From Chrysiogenes arsenatis DSM 11915 (GTDB lineage Bacteria > Chrysiogenota > Chrysiogenetes > Chrysiogenales > Chrysiogenaceae), in contig NZ_AWNK01000004.1 in NCBI RefSeq assembly GCF_000469585.1, positions 40,311 to 104,310 of the forward strand: a stretch of DNA of 64,000 nt, given 5' to 3'. Numbering within the stretch: position 1 is the first letter of the stretch; each line of letters starts with the position of its first letter. The translations under genes and the position numbers were made by a program. This document shows positions 22,896 through 55,900 of the stretch, piece by piece. The notes below the pieces were generated by a model. The model was not told the origin of the DNA and did no database searches. It was given only the letters and a program-made list of their open reading frames with translations.

Positions 22896-23857
22896 TCTTG
22901 CGAAACCAACGGATTTTTATTGGAGGCATCAGCATGAAACTTCGGCGATATATTTCCCACCACAACACGGTTGCGCCCCTGGCGTTTCGCGAGATAGAGG
23001 GCATCGTCTGCCACACCGATCAACATTTCCAAGGTGTTCTCTGTACTCCCTGAATATTCGGCAACACCTATACTAACCGTAATGCGCAGATGAATATCAT
23101 TATAGGTAATGATCGCACATTCAATCGCGGAACGAAGCCGTTCTGCCAATATAAAAGCATTCTCAGCCGATGTTTCTGGCAAAATACAACAAAACTCTTC
23201 GCCCCCATACCGCCCAACAATATCCACAATGCGCACCGCTTGCTGTAAGATGGTCGCCATTTCGCGCAAAACATAATCACCACATAAATGACCGTGGGTA
23301 TCGTTGACCACCTTGAAATGGTCAATATCGATCATAAACAGGCAGATTGATTTACCAAACCGGCGCGCTCTGGCAATTTCTGCGGCAAGACAAGAATCAA
23401 GATGACTTCGGTTGTAAAGCCTCGTCAGATGATCGAGTTTGCTCATTTCAATCAGTCGGTGTTCGTACATGACGTAGTCAGTTGCGTCCTGAATGGTAAT
23501 AAAGATCCGTGTGATGACCCCGCTCTCATCACGAATCGGCCCCGCCGTGCAATTCTGCTGCATAGCAGGAAGATATTCGGCAGAACCATGAGGATTTTTC
23601 ATTGGAATCAGGTAGTGGTGAAGTTTTTGCGAAAAAGTAGAATAATTGCCGAACTGAAATACACTTTGCACAAAACGCTTAAACGCGGCGGTTTTTAATT
23701 CGGGATAAAATTCATAGATCTCTTTCCCGACAATATCCTCTTCGCGAATGCAACTATGCATCGTCATCCAACGGTTCCACGTCGTAACCCGCATTTCGCG
23801 ATCTAAGACGACGATACCCATACTGATGGTGGCAAAAATCTGTTGGTGCTCAAGCAT
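22892..23857 (-). CDS. PAS-GGDEF diguanylate cyclase
   Basis: N-terminal PAS-like region (GIVVLDREMRVTTWNRWM). GGDEF domain with GGEEF and RxxD (RIVD) five residues upstream. 4-nt overlap with cheA and 8-nt overlap with the cheC-like gene. Confidence 0.9.
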   Translation of the reverse strand: MLEHQQIFATISMGIVVLDREMRVTTWNRWMTMHSCIREEDIVGKEIYEFYPELKTAAFKRFVQSVFQFGNYSTFSQKLHHYLIPMKNPHGSAEYLPAMQQNCTAGPIRDESGVITRIFITIQDATDYVMYEHRLIEMSKLDHLTRLYNRSHLDSCLAAEIARARRFGKSICLFMIDIDHFKVVNDTHGHLCGDYVLREMATILQQAVRIVDIVGRYGGEEFCCILPETSAENAFILAERLRSAIECAIITYNDIHLRITVSIGVAEYSGSTENTLEMLIGVADDALYLAKRQGRNRVVVGNISPKFHADASNKNPLVSQE

Positions 23858-33696: not shown

Positions 33697-34551
33697 TTAT
33701 TCCCGCAGGGATATTTCTTTGTCCCACTCCCAGTAAAACGTGAGGTAAGGTTCGTTTGGGCGCCTCCACCCGAGTGAGATATGGCCAAGCATGGCATCGG
33801 GAAATCTTGAGAGGATCTGGATCACCGATGCGCGGCGAGAAATACTCAAGATCTCAAAGCATTGATCCTGCACGCACGGTAAGATATCCCTAATGGCTAC
33901 GTTTAAATCATACACTCGCAAATCCACCCCTTGGCTCTGTGGCGGAGTGTTGACGTACAGAATGTCCAGTTTTTTTTCGCCATCCACAGTTGCGACACCA
34001 ATCCGATCAAGTAGGCTACCGAAGATCGGTTCAGTAACAACCTCAGGAAGCAGTAAGGGAATCGTGGCTATGGTAGCACCGGGAACCATGTGGTAAGAAG
34101 TCACGCGCTCAAGTTTCCCACTTCGAGCCCGCCATTTGTAGCCACGACACCACAATGCCGATGGTTGCCAATAAAGTTGTTCTCCAACTTGCGTGGACAA
34201 ATGAACGGGAAATTCAAGATAGAGCTTGATGACCTCTGGCGTCGCTGACGACACGTTTTCCGGAGAGACTACCGCCGATTCAATTGCCAGATAACAAAAA
34301 TTTGCACGATCCCAATCGGCAAGAATTGATTCAGATACTATGTTCGGAACACCGCCAATCTCCTGAAAATGGGAAAACAATTCCATAGGGTCGAGATTCT
34401 GTTTATCAAACCCAAAAAGCAATCTACTGCCATCAAAGCCATTTGGTGTAATTTGCAGCGAACGTTCCCACCCTACCACTCTTGAACCCAACCAATGAGC
34501 GATTTGATAATAAACATCAAGAGTCAGAAGCTTATTGGAGTGGTTACTCAT
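33697..34551 (-). CDS. Hypothetical protein (284 aa), last gene of the operon
   Basis: Long ORF whose start overlaps the SecA-like gene stop by 8 nt. It has no signal peptide, TM segment or motif I recognise. Confidence 0.6.
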   Translation of the reverse strand: MSNHSNKLLTLDVYYQIAHWLGSRVVGWERSLQITPNGFDGSRLLFGFDKQNLDPMELFSHFQEIGGVPNIVSESILADWDRANFCYLAIESAVVSPENVSSATPEVIKLYLEFPVHLSTQVGEQLYWQPSALWCRGYKWRARSGKLERVTSYHMVPGATIATIPLLLPEVVTEPIFGSLLDRIGVATVDGEKKLDILYVNTPPQSQGVDLRVYDLNVAIRDILPCVQDQCFEILSISRRASVIQILSRFPDAMLGHISLGWRRPNEPYLTFYWEWDKEISLRE

Positions 34552-36502: not shown

Positions 36503-36504
36503 GC

Positions 36505-38652: not shown

Positions 38653-38655
38653 TTC

Positions 38656-40536
38656 CTACCTCCAGAGCGCAAGACGGATACGATTCAGCGTCTTGTGTGT
38701 ATAGATCCAGAAGTACGACCGTGGTTGCACATGAATTTTTGCCACCCCAGTCATACCAGGGCGCCACCACGTTTCACCATCCTCTTCAAGTTGAGCAATC
38801 ACGGTAAACCGCGCCCCCTCCTGCGACTTCACCTCAGCCATTGGAATTACGCGACTGATTCGCAGGGGAATTTTCCGCCCTGGCTGGCTGACCAGCGCAA
38901 ATTCGCCAATACTCCCCTCGCGCACATGGTGAATGTCGTCATGCGCTACTTCAACTACCACATATACATCTTCGGTTTGTGCAATACGCAGCAGGGGTTG
39001 CCCTTTGGAAACAGGTGCTGAAATCAGCTCGCGCCGCTCCCCTTCGACCACTACCCCAGTAAAGGGAGCGTGCATATGTGCTTGCGAAAGCTGATAATTC
39101 ACCCGCTCCATACGGGCTTTCACCTGCTCAATCCGTGCCAAAGCAATCGCCAAGTCCACACTGGTAAACTCTGCCCGAGCCCGATCAGCTTCGGTTACGT
39201 TTCGCTGTAACTCCGCTTGGAGTTCGGCAAGTTGCATCAGCAAATCTTGCACATCAAGCGTCAGCAACGGATCACCTTCCACCACCTCGTCACCACTGGT
39301 GACATAGGCATCGATGATCACCCCCTCAAAAGGGGCCGTAATGAGCCGAGTATTGTCCGTAACAAACTGCCCAGTCCCTTCAACAGTATGCATGGTGGAG
39401 AATGTCAGCGAGCCAAACAACAGTAAAGATCCAGCCAGTACCAACGACTTAACCAGCAGATTTTCTGCCCCCGCAAGACGGCCAATTGTGCGCAGAGCAA
39501 CCGTCCGCAACCGATCGCGCCATTCGGCATCTTGCAAATACAATTGTTCCAGCCGCGGCATCACGGTTCGTGCCAGAAAGTGCACCGCCTCGCAAGGAAG
39601 TTCCGGCAAATCATCACGGTAGTTGACGAGTGTCAATGCGAACACGGTATGGCCGTGAGAGTTCACAAGCGGAAAAGTCATAATAGATCGTGCCGCAAGG
39701 TGGGTTTGTAGTTGTTGATGAGCAAGGGTAATTACCTTTCCATCCGAAGCACGGTGACTTGAATAATGAATGGCGGCAACCTGATCCACCGACTCCTCTA
39801 AAGCCGCTTCAAACAGTCTAACGGTATCGGTTTTTTGCTCAAAGCGCTCATAGTGGCTGATCCCCTTTACCCGTGTATACGCCCCCTCTTTCCAGCCCAG
39901 CACGACCTGATCAAAGGCGCTCTGGTAATTAACGATGCCATTGGCTAACGCATACACAGCCGCTTGAAAGTTTTCGGATTGATATATTTCGCTCAGCAAG
40001 TCGAGCAAGCTTGCGAGCATGTTTTCGTGCGCCGTTTTCCGCGCATCAACTGCTTTTGACTCTGTACCTAACAACGCTGACGTGTTCAAGACGGACTCAT
40101 CCTGCACAAAGTCGAGCATTAACTGGGCACGCACAAGAATGTCGTTCAAACGTGTTGCAGCATCACAATCAATCGCTAAAATCAAAAAATATGGGGTAGG
40201 ACACAACGCACGGAGCGCGACGAAGCCGATTGACCCATCGATATGGGGATGGGGTGGACGGTGGGCAAATCCACTGGCTTCGGCCCGCTGCAGAAAAAGG
40301 AAAAATTCCTGCGTGTCTAACAAAGGCTTTGACGGGCTTTTCTGTTCTAAATCGCTGGTAGCAACCAAAAGCAGTTGATGTTCCTGTACCAAAATGAGTT
40401 CCGCACTCGGCACACGGCATACGTTCTTGACGAGCACCAGATAATCTATCCACGATGCTTGACCTGCTTGAGACTGAGTGACCCGTACGTGGTATAATTC
40501 CTGTAATCGTTGGCGAAATGCTTCTTTAGAGGCCAT
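38656..40536 (-). CDS. HlyD/MFP-family periplasmic adaptor with ~370-aa cytoplasmic N-terminal domain and one TM
   Basis: Single TM LLVKSLVLAGSLLLFGSLTF near residue 375. Then ITAPFEGVIIDAYVTSGDEVVEGDPLLTLD, a coiled-coil hairpin, HAPFTGVVV and a beta-barrel region ending GMTGVAKI. Confidence 0.8.
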   Translation of the reverse strand: MASKEAFRQRLQELYHVRVTQSQAGQASWIDYLVLVKNVCRVPSAELILVQEHQLLLVATSDLEQKSPSKPLLDTQEFFLFLQRAEASGFAHRPPHPHIDGSIGFVALRALCPTPYFLILAIDCDAATRLNDILVRAQLMLDFVQDESVLNTSALLGTESKAVDARKTAHENMLASLLDLLSEIYQSENFQAAVYALANGIVNYQSAFDQVVLGWKEGAYTRVKGISHYERFEQKTDTVRLFEAALEESVDQVAAIHYSSHRASDGKVITLAHQQLQTHLAARSIMTFPLVNSHGHTVFALTLVNYRDDLPELPCEAVHFLARTVMPRLEQLYLQDAEWRDRLRTVALRTIGRLAGAENLLVKSLVLAGSLLLFGSLTFSTMHTVEGTGQFVTDNTRLITAPFEGVIIDAYVTSGDEVVEGDPLLTLDVQDLLMQLAELQAELQRNVTEADRARAEFTSVDLAIALARIEQVKARMERVNYQLSQAHMHAPFTGVVVEGERRELISAPVSKGQPLLRIAQTEDVYVVVEVAHDDIHHVREGSIGEFALVSQPGRKIPLRISRVIPMAEVKSQEGARFTVIAQLEEDGETWWRPGMTGVAKIHVQPRSYFWIYTHKTLNRIRLALWR

Positions 40537-40548
40537 AAAACCACACCA

Positions 40549-41433
40549 TCACAGCTGCACTCGCGCTTTTAATCCTGGCCGAAACCGATTATCCACGTTG
40601 CGATATTCAACCTTCACTTCGACTAATCCACTTGCCGGATCAGCTACTGGTGAGAGAAAAGAAATCGCCCCTTGTGCGCGCGTGGATTCCACTGCAAAAT
40701 CAACTTTTTGCCCTATCGTAAGCTTCGCTGCGATAGCACTCGGAATACTGATGCGGATGTAAATATACGAAGTATCAACCAGTTCGATGATCGGCTCACC
40801 CGCCTGAGCCCATTCCCCTTTTTTGAGGCGAATTTGGGTGATAAATCCTTTACTGGGCGCGAGTAGAGTCCGTTGGGCAAGGACTTGTCGGCCAATTTTA
40901 TAATCGTAGTCTTGTTTTTTTTCTTCTAACTCAAGCAGTGCAACTTCGCTCTCTGTTGTGACTCTATTGATGATCATTTGATTGAGCTCATCAAGACTGA
41001 TTGATCTACTTTCATGGTACAACTCAAGAGCGGATTTTACTTGCTCCACTTGCAGCAGTAACCGAGCGCGAGCCCCGTCCAATGCACTCTTGTCCCGCAT
41101 CAGCGTTTCAAGGCGCGACAGTTCAAGTTGCTCAATATGTTGCTCCAGCACCAAGAGCGGTGTTCCCTGATCGACGTAGGCTCCTTCTGCGATCTTGACT
41201 TCACTGACCACACCGCTAACCGCCATTGCGAGCAAGTAGCGCTCACGAGGGTACACCACACCTACCATCGCATCACTTATTGCAACCGTCTCATGTGGAC
41301 TCACCTCTGGACTAAATGAACGGAAATCGCCACGCGAACGAGTGCTTGGAGCCTCGCTCGCTATAGCGAATACATTCAAGGACAAAAACAGCAGGAAAAA
41401 AATACAGTTGGTCAATCGCATAGTGCCCTTCAA
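40549..41433 (-). CDS. Secreted MFP/HlyD-family periplasmic adaptor
   Basis: Signal peptide ending AIA|SEA. Lipoyl halves (VSGVVSEVKIAEGAYVDQGTPLLVLE and LAPSKGFITQI), a coiled-coil hairpin, and a beta-barrel with LVEVKVEY. Confidence 0.85.
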   Translation of the reverse strand: MKGTMRLTNCIFFLLFLSLNVFAIASEAPSTRSRGDFRSFSPEVSPHETVAISDAMVGVVYPRERYLLAMAVSGVVSEVKIAEGAYVDQGTPLLVLEQHIEQLELSRLETLMRDKSALDGARARLLLQVEQVKSALELYHESRSISLDELNQMIINRVTTESEVALLELEEKKQDYDYKIGRQVLAQRTLLAPSKGFITQIRLKKGEWAQAGEPIIELVDTSYIYIRISIPSAIAAKLTIGQKVDFAVESTRAQGAISFLSPVADPASGLVEVKVEYRNVDNRFRPGLKARVQL

Positions 41434-41437
41434 AATT

Positions 41438-43027
41438 CTACAGTGCTTCTACGTCAAACTGAATGCCGAGTTCCTGCAACAGGCTACCATCCGAAAGCTG
41501 AAGACTGATTTTTGCCAGTTCATATTGAATCTCGGCATCCACCATACGGATTATACCCACGTTGAGATTATCTTCGCGCTCAATCATATCAATGTAGCGC
41601 GCTACACCGCGGTCAAACCGTTCCCGCTCAATTTCAAGCAGTTCCTTGAGGACAGTGGTATTCTGCCGATGACGATCCAACTCTTGATACGCTTGATCTA
41701 CCTGTGCAAGCCGCAACTGAAGTTGATTTGAAAGGTCTACCTTTACCGCTTCAGCCTGATATTGATTTTGGGTAATTCGTGAAAGCGCTATGGATTCTTT
41801 CGAACGCGCACTTTGATTACCACCTAAAGGGATGGAAAACTCAACACCAGCATACCAGTTGGGATAACGCTCCGAAAATGCTTCTTCAAAAGTTCTGCCG
41901 TAGCGCTCATCATACCGAAGGCTACTTTGGCCATAGCCCGCAACAAAATCGAGTTTTGGACGCAACTCATCGCGGGCTATCGCCAGAGAATGTTCTTCCA
42001 GCGCAATACGTTCTATTGCAATTCCGTAATTCGGCCAAACACTGAGAACCTGCTCAAAGTAAGTCTGAAAACTTTCCGGCTGTTGCCACGCGGTAGTGTC
42101 AGGCTCTGAAGTCGTCTGAAAAACAACGTGCTGATATTCATTGGCTGAGAGGTTGAGAACCCCCTTAATCGCACTTTTCACTTGTTCATACCCGCGCTCT
42201 ACGACAAATGATTCTGCCTGACGAAGTAGAAGGGTAGAACGGGCTTCGGTCATAGCAGTTTGCGGTAAGCGCCCAGCTTGCACGCGCCGCTCAATATCGG
42301 TGAGGATATTATTCGCATTTTTCAATGAATCTGCATTCAAAGCTTTCATCTGTTCGGCACGGTACAGCCGCCAGTAGAGGCTGAGCGCATCGTATGACTT
42401 ACTCAGAATCTGTTGCTGAGTTTCCTGTTTGCGGATTTCAATCTGTTTTTCTGATTGTGCGATCCGATTCTCAATTTGAGCCGCCCCAAATCCGCGCAAA
42501 ATTGGTTGACGGATACGGAAATTCAGCGAACCGACATTGTCGTTAATCCCAGTAGGATCATTCACCGAGCTCGTATTATTATAGCGTTTATGCCCTTCAT
42601 ATTCGACAGAGACCTCAGCCCCAGAAACGACTAACGTGCGCACGCCAAACTGAAAACGACCATTGCGGTCTATCGTCGTGTCATTAGGGGCTAACGGATT
42701 ATTTTCGGTTTTTCGCTCATCAGCACGGAGTATTGAAAAAAATTCCATCTCGTATGCGGCGCGATCATGCTGTAGTTGCGCCTCAGCAATTTTTTTCTGC
42801 TCTGCACTTACGAGCACCTCAGGATTGCGTAGGAGCACAAGGTGCACGAAAGACTCTTTATTTAGAGCCACAGCACCTTGTTGTATTTGCGTCAGCACTT
42901 GTTCGTGGCGATTCATGTCACCATGAGAAGGTTGACTCTCGGCCCACGCGGGAATGGCCAGACACGCTGCCGAAACCGCTAAACCTGCAAAAACTTTTTG
43001 GGGGCAAGAAAGTATATTCCGTATCAT
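41438..43027 (-). CDS. TolC-family outer-membrane channel protein
   Basis: Signal peptide ending PAWA|ESQ. Two-fold repeat organisation with long helical and short beta segments, with size and pattern typical of outer-membrane efflux proteins. I chose ATG 43027 after AAGAGG. 4-nt gap to the next gene. Confidence 0.85.
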   Translation of the reverse strand: MIRNILSCPQKVFAGLAVSAACLAIPAWAESQPSHGDMNRHEQVLTQIQQGAVALNKESFVHLVLLRNPEVLVSAEQKKIAEAQLQHDRAAYEMEFFSILRADERKTENNPLAPNDTTIDRNGRFQFGVRTLVVSGAEVSVEYEGHKRYNNTSSVNDPTGINDNVGSLNFRIRQPILRGFGAAQIENRIAQSEKQIEIRKQETQQQILSKSYDALSLYWRLYRAEQMKALNADSLKNANNILTDIERRVQAGRLPQTAMTEARSTLLLRQAESFVVERGYEQVKSAIKGVLNLSANEYQHVVFQTTSEPDTTAWQQPESFQTYFEQVLSVWPNYGIAIERIALEEHSLAIARDELRPKLDFVAGYGQSSLRYDERYGRTFEEAFSERYPNWYAGVEFSIPLGGNQSARSKESIALSRITQNQYQAEAVKVDLSNQLQLRLAQVDQAYQELDRHRQNTTVLKELLEIERERFDRGVARYIDMIEREDNLNVGIIRMVDAEIQYELAKISLQLSDGSLLQELGIQFDVEAL

Positions 43028-43063
43028 CGTCAACCTCTTTGTATCGGCATAGATGGCCATGGC

Positions 43064-43121
43064 TCAAAAAAATATAAACTTACCACCGTAAACTCCATTT
43101 ATTATAGAGATTACGGTGGTG
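43064..43121 (-). terminator. Hairpin plus U-tract between sapC and the tolC-like gene (terminator or attenuator)
   Basis: 10-bp stem ACCACCGTAA (43082-43091) / TTACGGTGGT (43111-43120) with a 19-nt loop. On the minus strand it is followed by AAGTTTATATTTTTTTGAG. Confidence 0.45.
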
Positions 43122-43128
43122 AATGTTT

Positions 43129-43875
43129 TTATGACTCAGCGATTACAGGCTCTGTTTCACCTGGCTTCAGGCTCGTCTGCCCATCTTTTAGCATCGCCAA
43201 GCGTTCAAGTTGGCTGAGTGAGGTTAAATGAGCAAAGATAGGCGCAAAGTAGCGCTTTTCGCGTATTTCAAGAAAGCGCTTATCGGAAAGATTATTCAAA
43301 CGCTCCTCATTGATCACATAACAACCAGTTACGTTGCGAATCTGCCCACCGTAGCGCACACGCATACTGAGCGGAGTAAAGAGATTATTTTCAGCCATGA
43401 ACGTACAGAATGCCTTCGTGAAGATCTCCATTTGTTGCATTTCGCCAAGGTATTTTTTTACATTGTCGATGATCACGGTTGGCTCACCTTTTTCAAACAA
43501 CGCTTGGCCATCTTTTGTCCCAACACAGTCCGCATCTTCATCAATGCAAACTGTAAATTGATCAGCTTGATCACTTTTAGCGAGGGCAAAAGGGTAACGG
43601 CGGATAATGGCTGGCACATATGAAGCCTTCCAACTCCCATCTTCAGCGATAAATAGATTTTCTCCGGCATCAAGGCCAAACATCACAACAGGCTTAAATT
43701 CATCCTGCTCTTTGTCTTCAAGGAAAACAATCGGATACACCGATGCCGCCCGAGCAAATTCATGCACCATGAGTGACGCAATATGAAACTTACTGGCAAA
43801 GGCAAAGCTGCTAATAGGTGTCACTTTTGTCTTCGCATGTTTGTCCTTGTTAAGCGGAACCAATTTTTTAAACAT
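43129..43875 (-). CDS. SapC-family protein
   Basis: The N-terminal pattern LVPLNKDKHAKTKV...F......H...L...EF..AA..YPIVFLED and ~250-aa length match SapC-family proteins as I know them. The gene starts 26 nt after the giant-gene stop. Confidence 0.75.
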   Translation of the reverse strand: MFKKLVPLNKDKHAKTKVTPISSFAFASKFHIASLMVHEFARAASVYPIVFLEDKEQDEFKPVVMFGLDAGENLFIAEDGSWKASYVPAIIRRYPFALAKSDQADQFTVCIDEDADCVGTKDGQALFEKGEPTVIIDNVKKYLGEMQQMEIFTKAFCTFMAENNLFTPLSMRVRYGGQIRNVTGCYVINEERLNNLSDKRFLEIREKRYFAPIFAHLTSLSQLERLAMLKDGQTSLKPGETEPVIAES

Positions 43876-43901: not shown

Positions 43902-46900
43902 TTAAAACTCAAATTCTTCCTCTGTGTAGAAGTCGAAAATGAAACTATCTTGAATACTTGAGCCAAAGCTCGAAAACTGGAAGTCTCCATAGAAGTTAAC
44001 CACCTTGCTGGAAGTATACGGCATTTGCAGGTTGAAACCTGGCTCTAAGCCTACTGGCGCTTGCTGCATAAATCCAAAGTCGAAGTTGATGCCACCAAAC
44101 ATTCCGTCAGAGATGCCAAGATCGCTCAAGTTCATAAAGGAACTCATGGTGGCTTTCTGTAAACGTGACAAGCTTGCATGATCAAGGAATGTTGTCGCAT
44201 TGTGCAAACGCAGAGCATCCATATTTTCTATCGATAATTCTTGGATTGTTTTACTTGCACTAGCCGAAGCGCCTCCCCCTTGAGATCCACTGAAGCGCAC
44301 TGACTCAAAAGCACTCAATTTGAATTCCGCTCTCACTGGACCATGAACAACGGCGTGATTACCCACAGAAATCACGTACACTCGCTGATCAATACCACGG
44401 ATACCAAATATATAGCTATCACCAGTAGCATCATCAACAACACTATACAGTTGCCCAGGACCGACAATGCCATGAATCTGCGCTGCATCTATCTTCAGTA
44501 AGTCAGCGCGGATAGCTTCAAGTTGAGGTATCAGGCTTGCTACTGGCTGATCAATAAAAAACGGTATCGTCTTGATAAACACCTGATTGGCAACAATATT
44601 GGCTGCTTGTGTCCCGAGCGAACTCTGGATACGATATTCCGAACTTTCAAGCCACACATCACCACCCGTCGCAACGTGAGCAATCAACAAAATACTATCG
44701 GTCGAGGTAAAGTAAATATCGCCTCGCTCTGATAATGTCTGTGCACTTGCTTTCATCTCTATGACCGGAGCCGTGTAACGAACTTCCCCCTGCCCCGTCA
44801 GCGACAGAGTGGCCTCTTGCACAATACTTTTTCCAGATGAAAGGACAACGGTACTATCGACGCCTGAGATATTCATAGCAAGAATCAGTGAACCATGTAC
44901 GGCATGGAGTTCGATAGTGCCATGACTACTCGTTCCATTCAGCATTGAATCCGTAATTTCTTCAACAAGAGCTTCATTGGTCATCCGCAGCACCGTTAGC
45001 TCACCGAACTGGTCATTATCACCAATGCGCAAATCTTCTTGGGCGGCAAGGAAGATACCACCATGACCAATATCCGCACTCAGTGAATCGACTTCAACCA
45101 CAAAAGGACGCCCTGATTCACCAAGTTGACTACCAGTAACCCGCAGATACTTTGCTAGGATATTCACGGTACTTGAAGGAGCACTGGTTATGACGCCACC
45201 AACCAGACTGACCGCAGTTGGAGTTGTTACATGAGAGATGGACATACTGTGAGTTGCTTCGATGCGAATATTGTTCTGAGTTTGCAATAGAGCTTTAGCT
45301 GTCATGGAGACTGATTGGGCACTAATGTCGAGCGTCGCATCTCCTGTAATATGAACCAGACTGTCGATAAACTCCACATTGCCGTTCCGCGCTAACAACG
45401 ACACATTACCACTGCTGGCAATGTCGCTCTGCACGATAATGGATCCATTTTCAACTTCTATTTGTAAGTGCTCGCCAGAGAAATTCAACGCACCATCAAG
45501 TATAAAGTTTCGCTGCTCACCGGAAACGCCTGCCTGCACCATTATGACAGTTACGGTGTCGGTTGCCAATTCAAGCTCAGACAAACGCAGATCACCACTA
45601 GTGGTAATGGTATTTAACCCCGCTATGGTGAATACCCCCTGCAGGGTAGTAGTCCCGCCACTGTGAGCACTTAGATCGCCACCAACCGTGAGGTTTCCTT
45701 CAATTGTCAAAGTTTCATCGGTTTTGATAGTCGTGTCACCGGTGATAGTGATTGCATCGCTGAGTATTACTGCTCCGGTTCCGGTGATAGCAAGGTCGCC
45801 GCCAATCTCTAGTGTGCCTTCGACGGTAGTTGCTCCGCCGACTGTCAGGGTAACATTGGCGCTGGTGAAAGTTCCTTCTATCAGCAGGGCATCGGTTGAT
45901 GTTAGTTCAGTACTTCCTTCAACGATAAAGATTCCGTCTAGGATGCTCTCGCCTGCACTGCTTGTGGTAAGGGCGCCACCAACAGTGAAGTTTCCTTCAA
46001 GTGTCAGGTCAGCATCGGTCTCGATAGTCGCGTCACCAATAATAGTGATTGTATCGTTGAGCATCACCGCTCCGGTTCCGGTGATAGCAAGGTCGCCGCC
46101 AATATCTAGTGTGCCTTCGACGGTAGTTGCTCCGCCGACTGTCAGGGTAATGTTGGCGCTGGTGAAAGTTCCTTCTATCAGCAGGGCACCGGTTGATGTT
46201 AGTTCAGTACTTCCTTCAACGATAAAGGTTCCATCTAGGATGCTCTTGCCAACACTGCTTGTGATGAGGGCGCCACCAACAGTGAAGTTTCCTTCAATCG
46301 TCAGGTCGGCATCGGTCTCGATAGTCGCGTCACCGCTAATGGTGATTGCATCGCTGAGCATCACCGCTCCAGTTCCGGTGATAGCAAGGTCGCCGCCAAT
46401 ATCGAGCGTACCTTCGACTGTAGTTGCTCCACCGACTGTCAGGGTGACGTTGGCACCGCTGAAGGTTCCGGTAATCGATAAGTCTGCTTTCGCATCGATA
46501 GTCGTGTCACCGCTAATGGTGATTGCATCGCTGAGTATTACTGCTCCGGTTCCAATGATAGCAAGGCTGCCTGCAACATCCAGCTCACCTTCGATAGTGG
46601 TTGTTCCGCCGATTGTCAGGGTGACATTGGCGCTGGTGAAAGTTCCTTCTATCAGCAGGGCACCGGTTGATGTTAGTTCAGTACTTCCGTCAACGATAAA
46701 GGTTCCATCTAGGATGCTCTTGCCAACACTGCTTGTGATGAGGGCGCCACCAACAGTGAAGTTTCCTTCAAGTGTCAGGTCGGCATCAGTCTCGATAGTC
46801 GCGTCACCGCTAATGGTGATTGCATCGCTGAGCATCACCGCTCCGGTTCCGGTGATAGCAAGGTCGCCGCCAATATCTAGTGTGCCTTCGACGGTAGTTG

Positions 46901-49900
46901 CTCCGCCGACTGTCAGGGTAACGTTGGCGCTGGTGAAAGTTCCTTCTATCAGCAGGGCACCGGTTGATGTTAGTTCAGTACTTCCGTCAACGATAAAGGT
47001 TCCGTCTAGGATGCTCTTGCCAACACTGCTTGTGATGAGGGCGCCACCAACAGTGAAGGTTCCGGTAATCGATAAGTCTGCTTTCGCATCAATGTTGATG
47101 TCACCGTCAATGGCTATTGCATTACTGAGTATCACCGCTCCGGTTCCAGTGATATCAAAGTTGCCAGCAACATCCAGCTCACCTTCAATAGTGGTTGCTC
47201 CACCAACTGTCAGGGTGACGTTGGCACCGCTGAAGGTTCCAGTAATCGATAAGTCTGCTTTCGCATCGATGTTGGTGTCACCGTCAATGGCGATTGCATT
47301 ACTGAGTATCACCGCTCCGGTTCCAGTGATGCCAAGGTTGCCAGCAACATCCAGCTCACCTTCGATAGTGGTTGTTCCGCCGACTGTCAGGGTGACCTTG
47401 GCACCGCTGAAGGTTCCGGTAATCGATAAGTCTACTTTCGCATCGATGTTGGTGTCTCCGTCAATGGCGATTGCATTACTGAGTATCACTGCTCCGGTTC
47501 CAGTGATATCAAAGTTGCCAGCAACATCCAGCTCACCTTCAATGGTAGTTGTTCCTCCGACAGTCATGGTGACGTTGGCACCGTTGAAATCTCCGTCAAT
47601 CGTCAGGGCTGCATCAGTATCGATAGTCGTGTCACCGGTGATAGTGATCGAATCGCTGAGCATTACCGCTCCAGTTCCGGTGATGCCAAGGTTGCCGCTA
47701 ATATCCAATGTGCCAGCGACTGCGGTTGTTCCACCGACTGCCAAGGTGACGTTGGCGCCAGTAAAGGTTCCGATAATCGCCAAGCCTGCTTTCGCATCGA
47801 TGGTCGTGTCACCGGTGATAGTGATCATATCGCTGAGCGTTACCGCTCCGGTTCCGGTGATGCCAAGGTTGCCGCTAATATCCAGTGTACCAGCGACTGC
47901 GGTTGTTCCACCGACTGTCAGGGTGACATTGGCACCGCTGAAGGTTCCGATAATCGCCAAGCCTGCTTTCGCATCGATAGTCGTGTCACCGCTAATGGTG
48001 ATTGCATCGCTGAGCGTTACCGCTCCGGTTCCGGTGATAGCAAGGTTGCCTGCAACATCCAGCTCACCTTCAATAGTGGTTGCTCCACCGACTGTCAGGG
48101 TGACGGCGGCGCCGGTAAAGTCTCCTTCTATCAGCAGGGCACCGGTTGATGTTAGTTCAGTACTTCCTTCAACGATAAAGGTTCCGTCTAGGATGCTCTT
48201 GCCAACACTGCTTGTGATGAGGGCGCCACCAACAGTGAAGTTTCCTTCAAGTGTCAGGTCGGCATCGGTCTCGATAGTCGCGTCACCGCTAATGGTGATT
48301 GTATCGCTGAGCATCGCCGCTCCGGTTCCGGTGATAGCAAGGTCGCCGCCAATATCGAGCGTACCTTCGACGGTAGTTGTTCCTCCGACTGTCATGGTGA
48401 TGTTGACACCAGTGAAATCTCCATCTATCGTCAAGTCTGCTTTCGCATCGATGTTGGTGTTGCCGTCAATGGTGATTGCATTGCTAAGTGCAACGTTTCC
48501 GGTTCCGGTGATGCCAAGGTCGCCGGTACTCACCAGCCTACCTTCGACGTTAGTTGCGCCTCCGACAGTCATGGTGACACCACCGCCGGTGTATCTCCCT
48601 TTAAGTGTTAAATCATTTGTGGCAGAAAGGTTGCTACTTCCTGTTGTGCTAAAAGTACCGCGCAAGATACTTGCACCATCGCTGTTCGCGACGAAGTCGC
48701 CAGCAACGGTTAACTCGCCTATGATTGTCAGGTCTGCTTTCGAATCGATGGTCGTGTCACTGCGCAGCTTGAAATCACCAATAAGAACCATATTGCCCTG
48801 ACTGTTGATTGTACTGGTGCCGCTTACCGTGAGTGACAGCGCACTTGCCTGATTGCTGGTGAGCGCTCCAAGGGTATCAATGTGCAACGTTCCGGCAACT
48901 GCATTTCTACCAAAGAGGTACGTGTCGCCATCTATAAAGAGCGTCGCATCACCGTTGAGCGTAGTGACGTTCAGGCTCGCAATGCGCACCTCGCTCTGAG
49001 TATTTGCGCCAAGGGAAATATCGCCATTGGTGGCGCGCATGGTGGTTTTGCCACCAAGTCGCAATACATCATCGGTATCATTGGCCAGTGCTATTGATTG
49101 GGCGGTGAATGAGTTATCGCCCGTCACGATAAGCTGTGTACTGGCGCCAGCGGTAATACTCTCTGGCGTAGTCACATTAAGGCGTCCCGCCGTATTGCTG
49201 CCTACAAACGTCACGGCATTATCAAGTTCCAATACCACTGCGCCAGCACTGTTGACCGTCAAGGTTCCGGCAGAGAAAAAGTCACCAACAGCATTGCCAA
49301 GACGAATTTCCCCGCCAGAGAATGCGGCATGACCTGTAATCGTAAGTTGTGCTTGCGTCAGGTTGGAAAGCACATTGACCGCTTGCGCACGAAGATCTCC
49401 ACCGACAGTGATATTCGATAGGGTTAAATTGTTGGCAGCCTTCAAATGGACATTTTTGGCTTGATGCACCGTCACGGCACCACCAAAGTTATGACTATTG
49501 TCAAATACAATATCCGATGCCGCATCAGCCGTGAGCTTTGTGATTCCCGTGACCGACAACTTGCCCGTCGCGCCATCATTAAGAGAACCCGATACCACCA
49601 GTTCTAGTGTTTTAGCAGTGCTTTCCCCCGCTAACACCATATCGCCATCGTGTGTTATGCGCACATTGCCATTGCTCACAAAGGTCAGAGTGCCAGTAGT
49701 GAAGGAATCGGTATCGATAGTAACGGCACTGCCTGAGAAACGGGAATTCTCTTCAACCGCAATCTGCGCCCCCTCTAGAGTACTCAGCTCATGAACCGCT
49801 GTCGCAACAAGATTGCCGGTGACGGTCAGATTTGCCAGTGTCAAGGTATTCACATCGCTGAGTGTTACATTCCGAGCGCCGAGCACGGTCACTGCGCCAC

Positions 49901-52900
49901 CAAAGTTGTGCGCGTTATCCAAAATGATATCGGCAGTCTCCGTTGCCTGCAGTGTTGTGGAGCCTGTAACCGTCAGGGTAGCATCAGTTCTGTTGGTAAC
50001 GGTGCCTTGTGCCGTCAAAGAAAGATTACCGCCGGCAAAGCTTGCACCGGCTAAGGTGAGCGGTGCGCTTTGGGTAATCACAACATTGCCAGTGGTACTG
50101 AATTGGAGTGCACCAAACGTAACATTTGATTCCGTGCCAATCACAATATCCGAACCGTCGCCAACCAGCAACGCTACCACACCAGCGACATCAATAGTCA
50201 CGTTAGCTTCGGTTTCAATACTTCCATCCGTTTCTAGGATAAGATCATTCGTCACATTCACAGCACCAAGATGAATAGACTGGGTATTTTTTAACGCCAC
50301 ATCATACGCATTGGTTATATGAATCGCACCACCCAGACTATGATTATTGTCAAGGTGGATAGCTTTTTCGTCTGCCACACGAAGTAATGTAGCGTTGATA
50401 ACGTGAAGCACACCGGTATCACCATCCGTGATATTGCCCGTCGCATGTAACGTCAGTTGCTGAGTAGAACTCGCTTGCAACAGGAGTAGATCACCCGTGT
50501 GAGAGATCTCAACCGCACCCGTCGTCGTAAATTGCAGCGAGCCAAAACGTGCCGTTACCGGCTCATCAATCGTAATATCTGCCCCACTGCCCGCCGTGAA
50601 AGAGGCGTGACCAAGTACGGTAATAATTGTTTCATTGCGTGTACCGATCGCACCATCCACTGTCGTCAGCACCAGTGACCCGGCTGTATTATTACCTGTC
50701 ATGATGGCATCAGCACCAGCCGCTACGTTTACAATAACCTCGCCCTCACTGGAAAACCGCATGGTTTCGGTGCTAAAATTATTCTCAATACCCAAAGTAA
50801 TGCTGGCAGCGGTAACATCTGTCAATCCACCAACTTCAATGGTATCCACTTGGCTTACGTGCCCGCCAGCATGAACTTTCAAATCACTATTGCTAGTAAT
50901 TGCGCCTAGCTTTACGTCATCAATATCAGCAATCGAAATGGCATGCTCGCCATCATTCAAAATCAATACAACGCCAGTAAAGTTATTTGTACTATTAGTT
51001 AAAGCAATCTCACCCGCCTGAGTGGTAAACGTTACCAAACCAGCATTGAGAGCTTGTACCAATGCGCCCGTTTGCGTTATGGCACCGGTGGCCGCAATGG
51101 TTAACGACCCACTCCCCACACTTGATGTCCCCAACTCCAGTGCTCCATCCTGCGTCAGCGTAACCGCATAGTCACCAGAGTTATGTAAATGCACCGTACT
51201 CGCGAACTGATTCGAAGTATCATCAAGTGTTATAACCCCAGCACCCGCGCTCAGGTGTGCCACTCCACCCACCGTAATGGCGCCAGACTGCACAATTCCT
51301 TGACCAGCTACGCGCAAGTCACCACGTATCGATGAGACACCCAATTCAAGTTGCTCATTTGTTGCTACCGTGACATTCGCACCTATCAACGCCACCGCAC
51401 CAACAAAGCGGTTTTGCGCATCAGTCAGCGTGATGTCAAATCGTTCATCACCACTTGCGGCAGTGATGCGACTCTCACCACTAATCACCATAACCCCTGC
51501 TTGCGAAATCACACCATGAGCATAAATATCCATATCACCTGTTATCGTAAGCTCTCCAAGTTCCAGCGCACGGTTGTTCACAATGTTAGCGCTCGCTGCC
51601 ACAAGGGACACATTACCCGAAAACTCGTTTGCTAGATTCTCAAGTACAACCGACCCCGTTGCATGGAGTGCCATATCACCACTGACGTCTAACGCGCCAG
51701 ATTGTGTAATATTTCCTGCTGTCACAACGGTGAAGTCGCCACTTATGGTTGATGCACTCAGTTGAGTGTTCAACATATTGTGCACGGTTACATTGTGCGC
51801 ATTAGCAAACGTCACAGAACCGGCCAGGCGATTATTTTCATTTTCCAGAAGAACATTCGATCCCGCCGTGACCGTGAGTAGCGTCGTACCACCCACCTCT
51901 AGCCAAGCCGCAGTATTTGCTAAAATTCCACCAACCGTTGACGAGAGAGCGACACCTCCTGTCACCACACTCTGCCCCGTGAGGGTGATCGCCGAACCCG
52001 TATCGCAAAGCGTAACGTCCGTTGCCTTCAATTGCAGTAATCCGGACGTGAACCCATCGCTATCATCAATTCCCAGTGTAATATCAGTTGTGGCCGTCAA
52101 GTCAGCAAGCCCCGCCACACTAATAGCCGTTCCGGTAGCCTGTATAATCGCACCAGCAGTCGCATCGAGTGTGAGCGAGCCACTGAGCGTCACATTCGCC
52201 AGCGAGACTGACTGATCCACGAGAGATGCATTTTTGCCACGCAAGGCCACTGAGCCAGTAAAGTTATTGCCTACATGAGTTAAGGTAATATCATAATCGG
52301 TTATGCCATCAAGACTACGAGCCTCTATCTCACTCCAACCGGTAACAGTAAGTGAACCACTTTGAGTAATATCGCCCGCCGCACTTATATCGAGATCTCC
52401 ACCAACCTGACTTTCAAGCAGTGTCAACGCCTGTTGATTCTGCAACGTTACATTTCCGCTGACATCAAGCTGTAAACTATCCGTTGCCAGTGTTGTCCCT
52501 GAAGCCTGTGCCACATCACCAGTGGCTAGAATAGTTAGGTTTCCATCAACTACGGTATTGCCGAGTGTAAGCCCGTGCGTCGTAATCAGGCTCAGATTGC
52601 TGGCAGAAGTCGCGACAGCTTTCAGAGTAAGCGTGGTGCCATACACGGTAGTGTCCGTATGTAACATTGCAGCCGCATCCAGCGACGCGCCCACAGTAAC
52701 CACACCACTAGCCGTTTCGTTGCCCTGCCATTCACCTCCGGCCTTTTCAAGATGACCGAAAATGAACTGGCTAAAGCCATGAGAATTTGCCAGCATCGAA
52801 TTGCTGATATTCAGCGCATCGCCAGCACTTACGCCAATATTCACGTTGCGCTCAGCGCTATACGCTCCGATGATCAACTCGGAACCATCACTTCCGGTGA

Positions 52901-55900
52901 AAGTTTTCCCGTCTGCCAAATGAACAGCATCGACGATAAGAGTCAGATCCTCAGAGACCGACACATTATCGTTGAAATTCGCAACCGTGGCACCGGTGAT
53001 CGCCAGTGTTGCCGCTTGTACTTTCGCATTGAATTTGATCGTGCCACCATTGAGGGCAATATTCAAATCAGCATCGGCGGTCACAATGTCAGCGGTAATG
53101 GCAATATTCCCCGCCGTGCTGCCACTGAGCGTCACCATGCCACTACCAAAGCCTACCGTTCCACCTATAATCGTCAATGAACCGCCATCCAGCAGGGTTA
53201 CACCTTTTTTGAAAATGACATCGCCCGTCGCATTGATGACCAGATCGCCAGCTATCGTCACCGCTTCTTCAAAGGTGACGTCGCTTGCACCGGTGATGTT
53301 CATACCAGCCAAATACCCTGTGGCCGGAGCCGTACCACTGCCTGAGCCCACTTCGCTCCAAACAATGACACGACCACCATCACTGAGATTTAGATTGAAT
53401 GTCGTCTCCACCCCGCCACTATTCGCGGCTAAGTAGTAACCAGCACTCTCACCACCCAGTGTAATATCGCCCCCACTGGTTACCGACACGCTGGAACCTA
53501 CGATCCGTAACGAGTCATGAATCGTATACTCTCCGGCAAATAAGTGTCTTCCACTAAGGTTGGTAGTTGCACCAGAACCGGTGATATTCAGCGATCCACC
53601 TTGAACCGTTCCACCCAAGTAGGTGGTATCGGAGTTCACTACAAAATCCCCTGCACCAACATTGATATCGCCATCGAGTTTTAATACCGTGTCGCCACTA
53701 TTGTCGACGGTCAAACCTTCGGACTTCAGCTGCGTCACGGTGAGCTGATTCGCGTTATTGCCCGTCAGGTTCAGTGCAACCGTTTTGGTTGTTTCCAGAT
53801 TCAGTGCGCCCGTCGCACCAGTAGAGACCTCGCCACTGATATTCAATGCCGCATTACTACGAATATGCGTATTGGCATTGGCCGAATTTACCCCATTGAG
53901 GGTGACAGACGTATTCGTACTATCGGCAAGAGTAAAGTCAACTTTCAGCTCCGCACCACCAGCACTGCTATTGGTGAGATTGGTTAACTGAGCATTACCA
54001 GAAACCTGTAAATTCAGGCTTCCCCCTTGCATCGCTACCGTACCACCAGCTAAATCCCCCTGTTGTTGAACGGTGAGTGCCACACCCGCCGTCGCCTGAG
54101 TATTCAGGTTTAAGTTCGCCGTTTGCGTACTCAGGGTCGTATCTTGCGTCACGGCAACGGTTAGATTTTTTGCAGTAATGGTGCCCGAAGAGAGGACGGT
54201 ATTCCCCGTCAGACTAATATCTGAATTTCCAGTACCAACGTTACTTCCGAGCACAATATCGCCACCAGAACTTGCTAAGTCGAGTGACTGCCCATCTCCC
54301 AATGGCAAATCGGTTACCCATATGTTGCCAGTAGCCGTAGCGGTTAGCGGTACATATCCATCACCACCTAAACCCACCTGCGAGTTCAGAATCGGTTTCG
54401 GGATACTCACCACGTAATCGCCTTGCACGTCTGTTTCCAGTTGCGCCAAGCTCAATGCAGATTGAGAGACCATGTTACGAGTAAATTCACCGCTGGAGGT
54501 TGCAATATTGAGAGTATCCAAAGCCCCAGTTGCACCAAGGATAGACACCGTATCCCCTACAATATGCACCGCACCACTTGGGGCGGCTTCCATGCGCTGA
54601 ATAGTGCCAATGGTATCCAACGTCACAGCACCGGCGGGCGCCGACACAAGACCAACTTTAATATCCCCTAAAGTTGCAACCGAAATGGTGTTCGTAACGC
54701 TATTGGTCATAGAACGGACATCAACCAGTGTCAAATCATCCTTCGTGCGGAGGTCGATCGCCCCATTGCCCGTGATCATTTGCTCGACTTTCAGCACACC
54801 GCTCTGCCGCACGGTGAGGTTACCGGAGTCCGTCTGCACATCTAACGACTTGACATTGGTAAACAGTGTCACATCGTCGGTTGCCCTTACCCGCAGTGTC
54901 TCTGACTTCAGCAATCCGCCCGTATTCATACTGATACGGTCGGCATGGAGTTCAATCAAGCTACTCGCATTGATGACACCGGCGGCTAAGTTGAGGTGCG
55001 CCGCTTCTATTTTAAGCGAATTTAGTGGCTCTAAACTTGTCAGACCGGCGATAACGCCATTGAGATAGAGATCATTCGTGGTTGCAATAGAGACACTTTC
55101 TTTGGCGCGCATATCCAGCACATGAACCATCAGCGTTGGTGCAATTACCCGAATAAAACCGCTTGGGCTACTTTCTGTAGGAGAACCTTCAGTTGGTGTA
55201 CCTGGATTTTCCCCTTCAAGATTCACCACGGCAATATCTGACAATCCCGATGCCCGCATTACCAATTTATCTATTTTTCCGGCTGGATTATCCAAACGGA
55301 GCAGATCTCCCTCGAACATGATGTTGGCATCTGACACCAGCTCTACCAGAGCATTGGCACGGATGGCAGCGTTGAGAGTGAGTGTTTGACCAGAATCATC
55401 GACACCAGTACCCGAATGCACCGCATGGATAATAACCTTGTCCGCCGACATATCCTCATCAAAGCTTGTCACTTGACTACCCGCATTACCAAAGGCAAAG
55501 GCGCTGGCACGGTATTCCAACGTACCGGCCGCCTGATTAAACTGACGGTAGAGGTTGACACTCCCTTGCGTAGCTACCAATGCCAGATTGGTATAGCCGG
55601 TAACCGAGTCATCGGCACTACTGCTCCAACCATCCGGTTTTTCGACCAGTACATTGCCCTCTTCCGACTGTAAACGGATCGTGTGGCCACTTACCTGAGC
55701 CTCTTTATCGAGACGCACATCATCCTGCGCACTTATATGCAAAAGGCCAGAACCTTGTAATGCTACCGTACCAAGTAACAGTCCGGGTGAAGTTTGCCCC
55801 GCTAACGAACGGTCGCGTACAATCAAATCGCCGCTGTCACTACTGGCTTGTAGGTGATTGACCGCTACCTCTAGCCCACTTACACCAGTACCAGCATCCA

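What the first reader, a model, noticed from the sequence alone, without database searches (positions are those of the whole stretch)
45560..48590. Thirteen near-identical in-frame modules in two length classes (177 and 297 bp)
The array mixes 59-aa units with 99-aa units that carry a 40-aa insertion at a fixed position. Units far apart are almost identical at the DNA level. This points to recent expansion or ongoing gene conversion. Such arrays change copy number by recombination, so fibre length could vary between cells or strains. The same property makes this stretch prone to assembly collapse or expansion.
Basis: seen in the sequence. Interest (0 to 1): 0.55.

Follow-up and report, generated by a model that had tools for sequence, protein, structure and literature searches.

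The report
Recombining beta-helix repeats in giant gene
A 3-kb run of in-frame repeats inside a bacterial gene of more than 20 kb encodes stacked turns of a rigid protein rod, in blocks of three or five turns that recombination has shuffled among themselves; the feature is real, but this is a familiar way for giant surface proteins to evolve.

Summary
The repeat array is real. It lies on the minus strand inside an open reading frame of at least 6,697 codons (43902-63995; the N-terminus is beyond the window). It is the only DNA-level tandem array in the 64 kb. Thirteen in-frame modules spaced by 177 or 297 bp are confirmed, and a further degenerate 297-bp module sits at 48510-48806.

"Near-identical" is overstated. 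The shared 177-nt core averages 79% identity (70-93%). Only the extra 120 nt is 91-99% identical among five copies. The C-terminal module is degenerate.

Recombination among modules is supported statistically, and segment identities are mosaic. Both degenerate flanking modules, and the units of the nearest homologue, have five coils. The 59-aa form is therefore more likely a two-coil deletion than the 99-aa form an insertion.

No close relative carries this array, so copy-number variation and assembly collapse remain untested.

The more unusual feature is the context: a conserved SapC-TolC-HlyD-HlyD-M50/HlyD-SecA-like cluster lies downstream.

The parts
43902..63995 (-). Giant ORF of at least 6,697 codons. 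No stop lies upstream of the first ATG, so the N-terminus is probably beyond the window's right end.
45786..48509 (-). Twelve well-conserved in-frame modules (aa 5163-6070): 7 x 59 aa (177 bp, three coils) and 5 x 99 aa (297 bp, five coils). Order from the N-terminal side (S = short, L = long): S L S S S S S L L S L L.
45489..45785 (-). Module 13 (aa 6071-6169): degenerate long-type module. Homology to the consensus ends after about 66 aa (about window 45588).
48510..48806 (-). 47/96 aa identical to the long consensus without gaps; 58-60% nt identity.
48117..48236 (-). 120-nt two-coil segment of module 2.
46935..47054 (-). 120-nt two-coil segment of module 8. This module is chimeric: its head is 94-96% identical to short modules 6 and 7, while its extra segment and tail are 98-99% identical to module 11.
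46638..46757 (-). 120-nt two-coil segment of module 9.
46164..46283 (-). 120-nt two-coil segment of module 11.
45867..45986 (-). 120-nt two-coil segment of module 12.
48510..52502 (-). Upstream DUF5649 repeat region of the same protein (aa 3832-5162). It is repetitive at the protein level only.
   Evidence: PF18886, 422.9 bits, 17 stretches; no exact DNA repeat longer than 15 nt
43905..44699 (-). Conserved C-terminal domain of about 265 aa, ending ...VVNFYGDFQFSSFG...FIFDFYTEEEFEF-COOH. Candidate export signal (inferred).
33697..43875 (-). Downstream co-oriented gene cluster, the putative export machinery of the giant protein: SapC (43129-43875), TolC-like (41438-43060), HlyD (40549-41433), HlyD (38656-40536), M50-like HExxH protein with a C-terminal stretch weakly resembling HlyD adaptors (36505-38652), truncated SecA-like ATPase (34544-36502), unknown 284-aa protein (33697-34551).

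Best explanation
The stretch is a tandem array of beta-helix coils near the C-terminus of a giant, probably exported, rod-like protein.

Shown:
- The array is coding, on the minus strand, and in frame.
- Its basic structural period is a 19-20-residue coil with the pattern x-[IV]-x-G-x3-[IL]-x6-[LI]-x-[IL]-[ED]-G-T-[FL].
- A 59-aa module is three coils and a 99-aa module is five. The 40-aa difference is exactly two coils. At the DNA level it is bounded by an imperfect 14-nt direct repeat (GAAGGAAACTTCAC / GAAGGAACTTTCAC).
- A confident model folds four consecutive modules into one continuous right-handed beta-helix like the shaft of EtpA.
- The modules are mosaics of each other, so recombination among them (gene conversion and/or unequal crossing-over) has occurred.
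- The five-coil modules are the most recently homogenised.
- The array is specific to this lineage. A distant homologue (P0001) has independently homogenised its own 100-aa five-coil units, which is the pattern of concerted evolution.

Inferred:
- The five-coil unit is ancestral and the three-coil unit is a two-coil deletion derivative that then spread.
- The array is a rigid spacer. At about 0.48 nm per coil, a short module adds about 1.4 nm and a long one about 2.4 nm. The 12 conserved modules (46 coils) give about 22 nm, or about 27 nm with the two degenerate modules.
- The 51 in-frame exact repeats of 30-93 nt make gain or loss of modules by homologous recombination likely.
- The protein is exported through the adjacent SapC/TolC/HlyD/M50/SecA-like cluster.
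For: - Array anatomy.
- Coil register and 20-aa hydrophobic periodicity (autocorrelation 0.33 at lag 20).
- Junction direct repeat.
- AF2 model of modules 7-10: pLDDT 92.5, pTM 0.84, all-beta.
- Pfam DUF5649: 78 bits within the array and 423 bits just upstream. There is also a weak Fil_haemagg hit.
- Recombination: Sawyer and PHI permutation tests; segment identity matrices, in which module 8 has the head of modules 6/7 and the tail of 11/12; a 300-nt tract at 97% identity that spans a module boundary.
- Synonymous divergence of 0-0.14 in the 120-nt segment against a median of 0.47.
- Lineage specificity. HMMs of the module hit only a weak relative, L012. The Spiribacter homologue L013 aligns up to query aa 4965 (34% identity) and again over the C-terminal about 345 aa, with only about 120 aa in between where the window protein has about 1,390 aa. 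Among 1.84 billion representative proteins the best hit is 36% identical, and none shows 59/99 spacing.
- Concerted evolution: 71% (window) and 73% (P0001) aa identity within arrays, against 42% between them. The 99-aa and 100-aa units are collinear.
- Both flanking degenerate modules are long-type.
- Context.
Against: - No reads or sister strains are available, so neither the copy number nor its variability is verified.
- The deletion-versus-insertion direction rests on two degenerate flanking modules and one distant homologue.
- The short modules are more diverged from each other than the long ones. This could also mean that the short form is the older resident and the long form a recent invader.
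- Export and surface location are inferred from gene neighbourhood only. The N-terminus is missing and the C-terminal domain could not be modelled (pLDDT 34).
Confidence: 0.72

Rival explanations
1. The 59-aa unit is the original module, and the 99-aa units arose when a 40-aa (two-coil) insertion appeared once and then spread through the array by conversion.
For: The 120-nt segment and the long modules are the most homogeneous part of the array (91-99% identity; dS 0-0.14), as expected for a recently spreading variant. The short modules are older and more diverged from each other. Module 8 shows that a short-type head can acquire the segment by recombination.
Against: The degenerate and presumably oldest modules at both edges (48510-48806 and 45489-45785) are collinear with the long form. 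The nearest homologue's standard unit is 100 aa and aligns end to end with the 99-aa unit. The two extra coils are only about 35% identical to each other (7 of 20 residues, counted by eye from the coil stack), so they are not a fresh duplication.
Confidence: 0.25
2. Assembly artefact: the number, order or mosaic make-up of the modules results from mis-threading, collapse or expansion of repeats during assembly.
For: The array has 51 exact repeats of 30-93 nt. Many related draft contigs end inside the giant gene next to SapC, which shows that such genes are hard to assemble.
Against: No two modules are identical, and every module carries private substitutions. The reading frame is intact over 20 kb. 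The longest exact repeat (93 nt) is shorter than common read lengths. Artefactual expansion would give identical copies.
Confidence: 0.08
3. The high DNA identity reflects purifying selection on the protein (or on codons), not recent duplication or conversion.
For: Core hydrophobic and glycine positions of the coil are invariant: 19 of 59 core columns.
Against: Synonymous divergence varies from 0 to more than 0.5 between segments of the same modules. Shared tracts are clustered far beyond permutation expectation. Homologous proteins elsewhere keep the fold at 25-40% identity, so the fold does not require this sequence.
Confidence: 0.04
4. The array is a contingency locus. Frequent in-frame gain and loss or shuffling of three- and five-coil modules is selected for, to vary rod length or surface epitopes within a population.
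For: All repeat offsets are multiples of 3, and there are many recombination-competent tracts. dN/dS among the closest pairs is fairly high, for example 0.064/0.090 for modules 2 and 9. Other SapC-linked giant genes carry their own homogenised arrays with different periods.
Against: There are no population data. The same patterns arise neutrally in any tandem coding repeat.
Confidence: 0.15

Closest known systems
Beta-helical shafts of two-partner-secretion exoproteins (EtpA, HMW1, filamentous haemagglutinin)
   Different: No TPS secretion domain is detected in the 6,697 residues available. No Omp85/TpsB gene lies in the 43 kb of the window on the gene's 3' side. The neighbours are SapC, TolC, HlyD, M50 and SecA-like genes instead. 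Sequence identity to EtpA is only 22%.
Pfam DUF5649 (PF18886), listed as a stalk domain of fibrillar-adhesin-like proteins (Monzon et al. 2021, PMC8286594)
   Same: The array scores 78 bits (cut-off 25) in 8 stretches, and the adjoining 1,331 aa score 423 bits. The paper lists DUF5649 among stalk domains not found combined with a known adhesive domain.
   Different: The Pfam unit is 68 positions. Here the higher-order units are 59 and 99 aa and are homogenised at the DNA level, unlike the upstream DUF5649 region.
Giant SapC/TolC-linked proteins Cag_663 and Cag_665 of Chlorobium chlorochromatii (bioRxiv 10.64898/2026.03.19.712371)
   Same: Very large proteins rich in haemagglutinin-type beta-helix repeats, without known export signals, encoded next to sapC and tolC homologues.
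   Different: Sequence homology to those proteins was not tested. Here the cluster also contains two HlyD genes, an M50-like protein and a SecA-like ATPase directly downstream.
Repetitive extender regions of giant RTX adhesins (LapA, SiiE, MpIBP) and other surface-protein tandem repeats that evolve in concert (own knowledge)
   Same: Long arrays of similar in-frame modules set the reach of a giant surface protein and are homogenised by intragenic recombination.
   Different: Those extenders are separate Ig-like domains, not coils of one continuous beta-helix. No RTX repeats and no T1SS ABC transporter are present here.

Membership tests
Pfam DUF5649 repeat proteins | Match to PF18886 above the gathering score | tested here: met
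   Array alone: 78.1 bits against a cut-off of 25, in 8 stretches. Upstream region: 422.9 bits.
TpsA / filamentous haemagglutinin family (type Vb substrates) | Right-handed beta-helix shaft of coils of about 19-20 residues | tested here: met
TpsA / filamentous haemagglutinin family (type Vb substrates) | N-terminal TPS secretion domain (Haemagg_act) | tested here: inconclusive
   No Pfam hit in the 6,697 aa present. However, the true N-terminus lies outside the window.
TpsA / filamentous haemagglutinin family (type Vb substrates) | Adjacent TpsB (Omp85-type) transporter gene | tested here: inconclusive
   None is found among the genes on the gene's 3' side, window 1-43875. The 5' side of the gene is not in the window.
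RTX adhesins / classical type I secretion substrates | C-terminal RTX nonapeptide (HemolysinCabind) repeats | tested here: not met
   No such Pfam match anywhere in the protein.
RTX adhesins / classical type I secretion substrates | Dedicated ABC transporter together with a membrane-fusion protein and TolC | tested here: not met
   TolC-like and HlyD-type proteins are present, but the cluster has no ABC transporter. A SecA-like ATPase and an M50-like membrane protein take its place.
Classical autotransporters (type Va) | C-terminal beta-barrel translocator domain | tested here: inconclusive
   No Pfam Autotransporter match in the last 528 aa. The AF2 model of the last 300 aa is uninformative (pLDDT 34).
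SapC/TolC-linked giant beta-helical proteins | Giant repeat protein encoded directly next to sapC and tolC homologues | tested here: met
   SapC PF07277 at 233 bits; OEP at 95 bits. The same arrangement occurs in many related loci.
Tandem coding repeats under concerted evolution | Modules more alike within a genome than between homologous arrays, with mosaic conversion tracts | tested here: met
   71-73% aa identity within arrays against 42% between them. Sawyer: 0 of 2000 permutations reach the observed value. PHI: 0 of 5000 permutations are as low.
Tandem coding repeats under concerted evolution | Copy-number polymorphism between strains or cells | not testable with these tools
   No reads are available, and no close relative was found in the collections searched.

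The most novel reading that the evidence does not exclude
The array is the length-adjustable, C-terminus-proximal shaft of the cargo of an undescribed envelope-spanning export system. In place of the ABC transporter of type I secretion, this system would use a truncated SecA-like ATPase, an M50-like inner-membrane protein with a C-terminal HlyD-like part, two further HlyD adaptors, TolC and SapC. It would recognise a conserved acidic-aromatic C-terminal tail (...YGDFQFWS...FDFYxEEEFEF). All five genes downstream of SapC are found in 29 of the 80 SapC-containing loci fetched from beta- and gammaproteobacterial (mostly MAG) genomes. Four full-text searches for the combination found no description.
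Probability: 0.3. Interest if true: 0.75.

Novelty: new member of a known kind. Interest (0 to 1): 0.35.

Why it matters
The array is a clean example of how a giant beta-helical protein changes length. Whole coils are added or removed in blocks of three or five, recombination homogenises the blocks, and two length classes interconvert at a short direct repeat.

This matters practically, because the stretch needs long-read confirmation and could vary between isolates. It also matters for annotation of DUF5649 proteins.

The larger potential value is in the context. This family of giant proteins is consistently linked to a TolC/HlyD cluster that contains a SecA-like ATPase and no ABC transporter. 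If that cluster is a real export route, it would be a new type of secretion machinery.

Tried and rejected
- Word-indexed protein searches with the C-terminal 528 aa and with modules 7-10 returned nothing.
- The metagenome scan with modules 11-13 plus the C-terminus gave one distant locus only (L081, 26% identity). Strain-level copy-number comparison was therefore impossible.
- The genome scan with SapC gave 80 loci. None is from the window's own species; the best SapC identity is 83%.
- HMMs of the 59-aa core and of the 40-aa segment hit only L012 (core, weakly) among the loci. Among 100 remote homologues, only P0001 and P0043 (both weakly) matched the 40-aa segment, and none shows 59/99 spacing.
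- The AF2 model of the conserved C-terminal 300 aa, with a 6-sequence alignment, failed (pLDDT 34). An autotransporter-like barrel can be neither supported nor excluded.
- The gene after P0001 in L082 is not recognisably SapC by BLASTP.
- The 1,037-aa ORF on the plus strand (45688-48801) was rejected as a gene. It lies within the span of the repeat modules (45489-48806) and is antisense to a 20-kb ORF.
- A higher-order 474-bp (177+297) period was rejected as the organising unit: TRF gives only 63% matches with 9% indels, and the module order S L S S S S S L L S L L is not periodic.
- Four literature searches for the SecA-like/HlyD/M50/SapC/TolC combination found no description. The library excludes most subscription journals.
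Full report
OBSERVATION

The flagged stretch lies inside one very long minus-strand ORF, window 43902-63995, of 6,697 codons. The five bases upstream of its first ATG contain no stop. The gene therefore probably continues beyond the window and its N-terminus is missing.

Tandem Repeats Finder reports periods of 177, 297 and 474 bp between 45677 and 48578. Matches are 81-89% for the two basic periods. It is the only tandem array with a score of 100 or more in the whole 64 kb.

The repeat finder recovers 13 copies of an 80-nt anchor between 45774 and 48577. Their spacings are only 177 bp (7 times) or 297 bp (5 times).

I set the register at the motif TGTG. Translation then gives 13 modules starting at residues 5163, 5222, 5321, 5380, 5439, 5498, 5557, 5616, 5715, 5814, 5873, 5972 and 6071. 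Seven are 59 aa and six are 99 aa. The extra 40 aa always follows residue 32 of the module.

HOW SIMILAR THE MODULES ARE

"Near-identical" is too strong.
- Over the shared 177 nt, modules 1-12 are 79% identical on average (range 70-93%).
- The 120-nt extra segment is 91-99% identical among its five good copies.
- Module 13 is degenerate: 45-59% identity in the core, with an unrelated tail.
- High identity over long distances exists for segments, not whole units. Modules 2 and 9 (1,479 bp apart) are 97% identical in the first 96 nt. Modules 8, 11 and 12 share a tail at 96-99%.
- A 300-nt tract that spans a module boundary (46757-47056 against 45986-46285) is 97% identical.
- The array contains 51 exact repeats of 30 nt or more (longest 93 nt), all at offsets that are multiples of 3. 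The remaining 15 kb of the same gene has none longer than 15 nt.

Residues 5064-5162 (window 48510-48806) align without gaps to the long consensus at 47/96 identity.

WHAT THE MODULES ARE

Hydrophobic residues in the array recur with a period of 20 residues (autocorrelation 0.33). Stacking the consensus gives five coils of 19-20 residues that share one pattern:
- TISGDTTIDAKADLTIEGTF
- TVGGALITSSVGKSILDGTF
- IVEGSTELTSTGALLIEGTF
- TGANVTLTVGGTTTVEGTL
- DIGGNLAITGTGAVMLSDAI

A 99-aa module is five coils and a 59-aa module is three. The 40-aa difference is exactly coils 2 and 3. At the DNA level the 120-nt segment is bounded by an imperfect 14-nt direct repeat, GAAGGAAACTTCAC and GAAGGAACTTTCAC.

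- The next hits are HMW1, Vag8, pertactin and phage tailspikes.

The array is therefore predicted to form one continuous right-handed beta-helix of the two-partner-secretion adhesin type.

Pfam assigns the array to DUF5649 (78 bits) and the 1,331 residues before it much more strongly (423 bits). There is a weak Fil_haemagg hit at module 13. DUF5649 is listed among stalk domains of fibrillar-adhesin-like proteins (PMC8286594).

Parallel beta-helices rise about 0.48 nm per coil (established knowledge). By that figure a short module adds about 1.4 nm and a long one about 2.4 nm. The 12 conserved modules give about 22 nm.

HOW THE ARRAY EVOLVES

The modules are mosaics. Head, extra segment and tail each occur in discrete haplotypes that are combined in all ways.
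- Modules 11 and 12 have head type alpha and tail type 1.
- Modules 2 and 9 have alpha and tail type 2.
- Modules 8 and 10 have head type beta and tail type 1.
- Modules 6 and 7 have beta and tail type 2.
- Module 8 joins a head 94-96% identical to short modules 6 and 7 to an extra segment and tail 98-99% identical to module 11.

Formal tests agree.
- Sawyer's sum of squared shared-tract lengths is 27,514, against 17,844 +/- 830 for permuted site orders. None of 2000 permutations reaches it.
- Sawyer's maximum-tract statistic is not significant (344 of 2000 permutations reach it).
- The PHI statistic is 0.267 against 0.502 (0 of 5000 permutations as low).
- Half of all informative site pairs fail the four-gamete test.

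Synonymous divergence is very uneven. It is 0-0.14 within the 120-nt segment and 0.09 for the module 2/9 cores, against a median of 0.47. Selection on the protein would not produce this pattern.

Recombination among modules, and a recent spread of the five-coil type, are therefore well supported.

LINEAGE SPECIFICITY AND DIRECTION OF THE LENGTH CHANGE

- HMMs of the module hit none of 80 SapC-linked loci from other genomes except L012 (Thiomicrospira microaerophila), and that weakly. L012 has related coils in a 181-aa (543-bp) unit.
- The Spiribacter homologue (L013) is 34% identical up to residue 4965 and aligns again over the C-terminal about 345 residues. Only about 120 residues lie between those two alignments, where the window protein has about 1,390.
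- An exhaustive HMMER search of 1.84 billion representative proteins found only 100 hits. The best, P0001 (4,898 aa, from a metagenome contig), is 36% identical.
- P0001 has its own array near the C-terminus, of 100-aa units with occasional units of 169 and 224 aa. At the DNA level it has a 300-bp period with 87% matches.
- The window's 99-aa unit aligns end to end with P0001's 100-aa unit. Modules are 71-73% identical within each protein but 42% between them. That is the signature of concerted evolution.
- The five-coil layout is shared with this distant homologue, and both degenerate edge modules of the window's array are five-coil. The 59-aa form is therefore more likely a two-coil deletion derivative than the 99-aa form an insertion derivative.
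- This step is inferred. The greater divergence among the short modules is a point for the opposite view.

WHAT COULD NOT BE TESTED

No sequence close enough to compare module number was found. This covered two word-indexed protein searches, one genome scan, one metagenome scan and one exhaustive search.

Copy-number variation and assembly collapse therefore remain open.
- For fragility: there are many in-frame exact repeats, and many related draft contigs stop inside the giant gene just upstream of SapC.
- Against an artefact: no two modules are identical, the frame is intact for 20 kb, and the longest exact repeat is 93 nt.

CONTEXT

Directly downstream and co-oriented lie these genes:
- SapC (PF07277, 233 bits).
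- A TolC-like outer-membrane factor.
- Two HlyD-type adaptors.
- A 715-aa M50-like HExxH membrane protein with a C-terminal stretch weakly resembling HlyD adaptors.
- A 652-aa SecA-like ATPase.

The SecA-like protein matches SecA only over about residues 33-560/640, which is the motor region. There is no ABC transporter in the cluster.

All five genes downstream of SapC were found, mostly in the same order, in 29 of the 80 SapC loci. These come from gamma- and betaproteobacterial genomes, mostly MAGs. Further partial copies sit at contig ends.

Giant ORFs precede SapC in many of these loci. They end in acidic-aromatic tails such as ...FDFYTEEEFEF...DEEAFDYWIESLAL and ...YDIYTEEDELLAL. A C-terminal domain of about 265 aa is conserved among the closest homologues. 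Its structure could not be predicted (pLDDT 34).

A 2026 preprint describes giant haemagglutinin-repeat proteins of Chlorobium chlorochromatii flanked by sapC and tolC, and proposes export through them. Four full-text searches found no description of the SecA-like/M50/HlyD combination.

Export of the window's protein through this cluster is an inference from conserved neighbourhood only.

VERDICT

The finding is a real, statistically unambiguous coding tandem array. Its anatomy is now explained: blocks of three or five beta-helix coils that evolve in concert by intragenic recombination, in a lineage-specific expansion.

As a phenomenon it belongs to a well-known kind, the homogenised repeat arrays in giant surface proteins. 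I rate it as a new member of a known kind with modest interest (0.35).

Conversion and recent spread are supported. The insertion direction is probably reversed. Length variation and assembly problems are untested.

The neighbouring secretion-like cluster is the part that deserves separate follow-up.

Noticed in passing
window 33697-43875 (minus strand): Conserved cluster directly after the giant gene: SapC, TolC-like, HlyD, HlyD, an M50-like HExxH protein with a weakly HlyD-like C-terminal part, a truncated SecA-like ATPase (matches SecA residues about 33-560/640 only) and an unknown 284-aa protein. There is no ABC transporter. All five genes downstream of SapC are found in 29 of 80 SapC loci from beta- and gammaproteobacterial genomes. 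No description was found in four literature searches.
   Followed up: partly
window 43905-44699 (minus strand); also L012, L013, L015-L018, L057, L060, P0002-P0005, P0008, P0021: A conserved C-terminal domain of about 265 aa, and an acidic-aromatic extreme C-terminus, in SapC-linked giant proteins. Examples are ...YGDFQFWS.G...F.FDFY.EEEFEF in close homologues and ...DEEAFDYWIESLAL in betaproteobacterial ones. It is a candidate export signal. The AF2 model was uninformative.
   Followed up: partly
window 45688-48801 (plus strand): A 1,037-aa stop-free ORF antisense to the array, lying within the span of the repeat modules (45489-48806). It is most likely a by-product of the repeat composition, and automatic gene callers might annotate it.
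   Followed up: no
L001, L002, L005, L008, L010, L012, L015, L017, L019 and others: Many related draft contigs end within a few kb upstream of SapC, inside the giant gene. Assemblies commonly break in these genes.
   Followed up: no
L012:1063-2386, L021:29-1166, L043:1-2217, L031:13514-18140, L053:13562-15211, L082:20447-21803: Other loci fetched through SapC or through homology to the giant protein carry their own in-frame DNA-level arrays with different periods: 543, 531, 366, 510, 510 and 300 bp, at 84-91% matches. In L012 and L082 the array was checked to lie inside the giant ORF. In the other loci this was not checked, and the L031 and L053 arrays lie downstream of SapC. This points to repeated independent expansions in the family.
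   Followed up: partly
window 48510-52502 (minus strand): The strong DUF5649 repeat region just N-terminal of the array is repetitive only at the protein level. There is no exact DNA repeat longer than 15 nt. It looks like an older, no longer homogenised repeat region of the same protein.
   Followed up: partly
window 2273-24491: There is a dense set of chemotaxis and cyclic-di-GMP signalling genes. They include two MCPs, a CheA-like kinase, a CheC/CheX protein, GGDEF and EAL proteins at 8316-9968, 10374-12278, 17420-18658 and 22892-23857, and a PAS histidine kinase. They lie within 20-40 kb of the giant gene. Whether they regulate it is unknown.
   Followed up: no
window 63996-64000: The giant ORF has no in-frame stop upstream of its first ATG at 63995. 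The gene very likely extends beyond the window, so its true length and N-terminal export or anchor features are unknown.
   Followed up: no
L082:1-8946: The metagenome contig carrying P0001 encodes a second giant gene (product listed as 5,385 aa, running over the end of the locus) immediately upstream of P0001, separated from it by a 312-aa gene. Tandem giant genes recall the paired Cag_663/Cag_665 arrangement.
   Followed up: no
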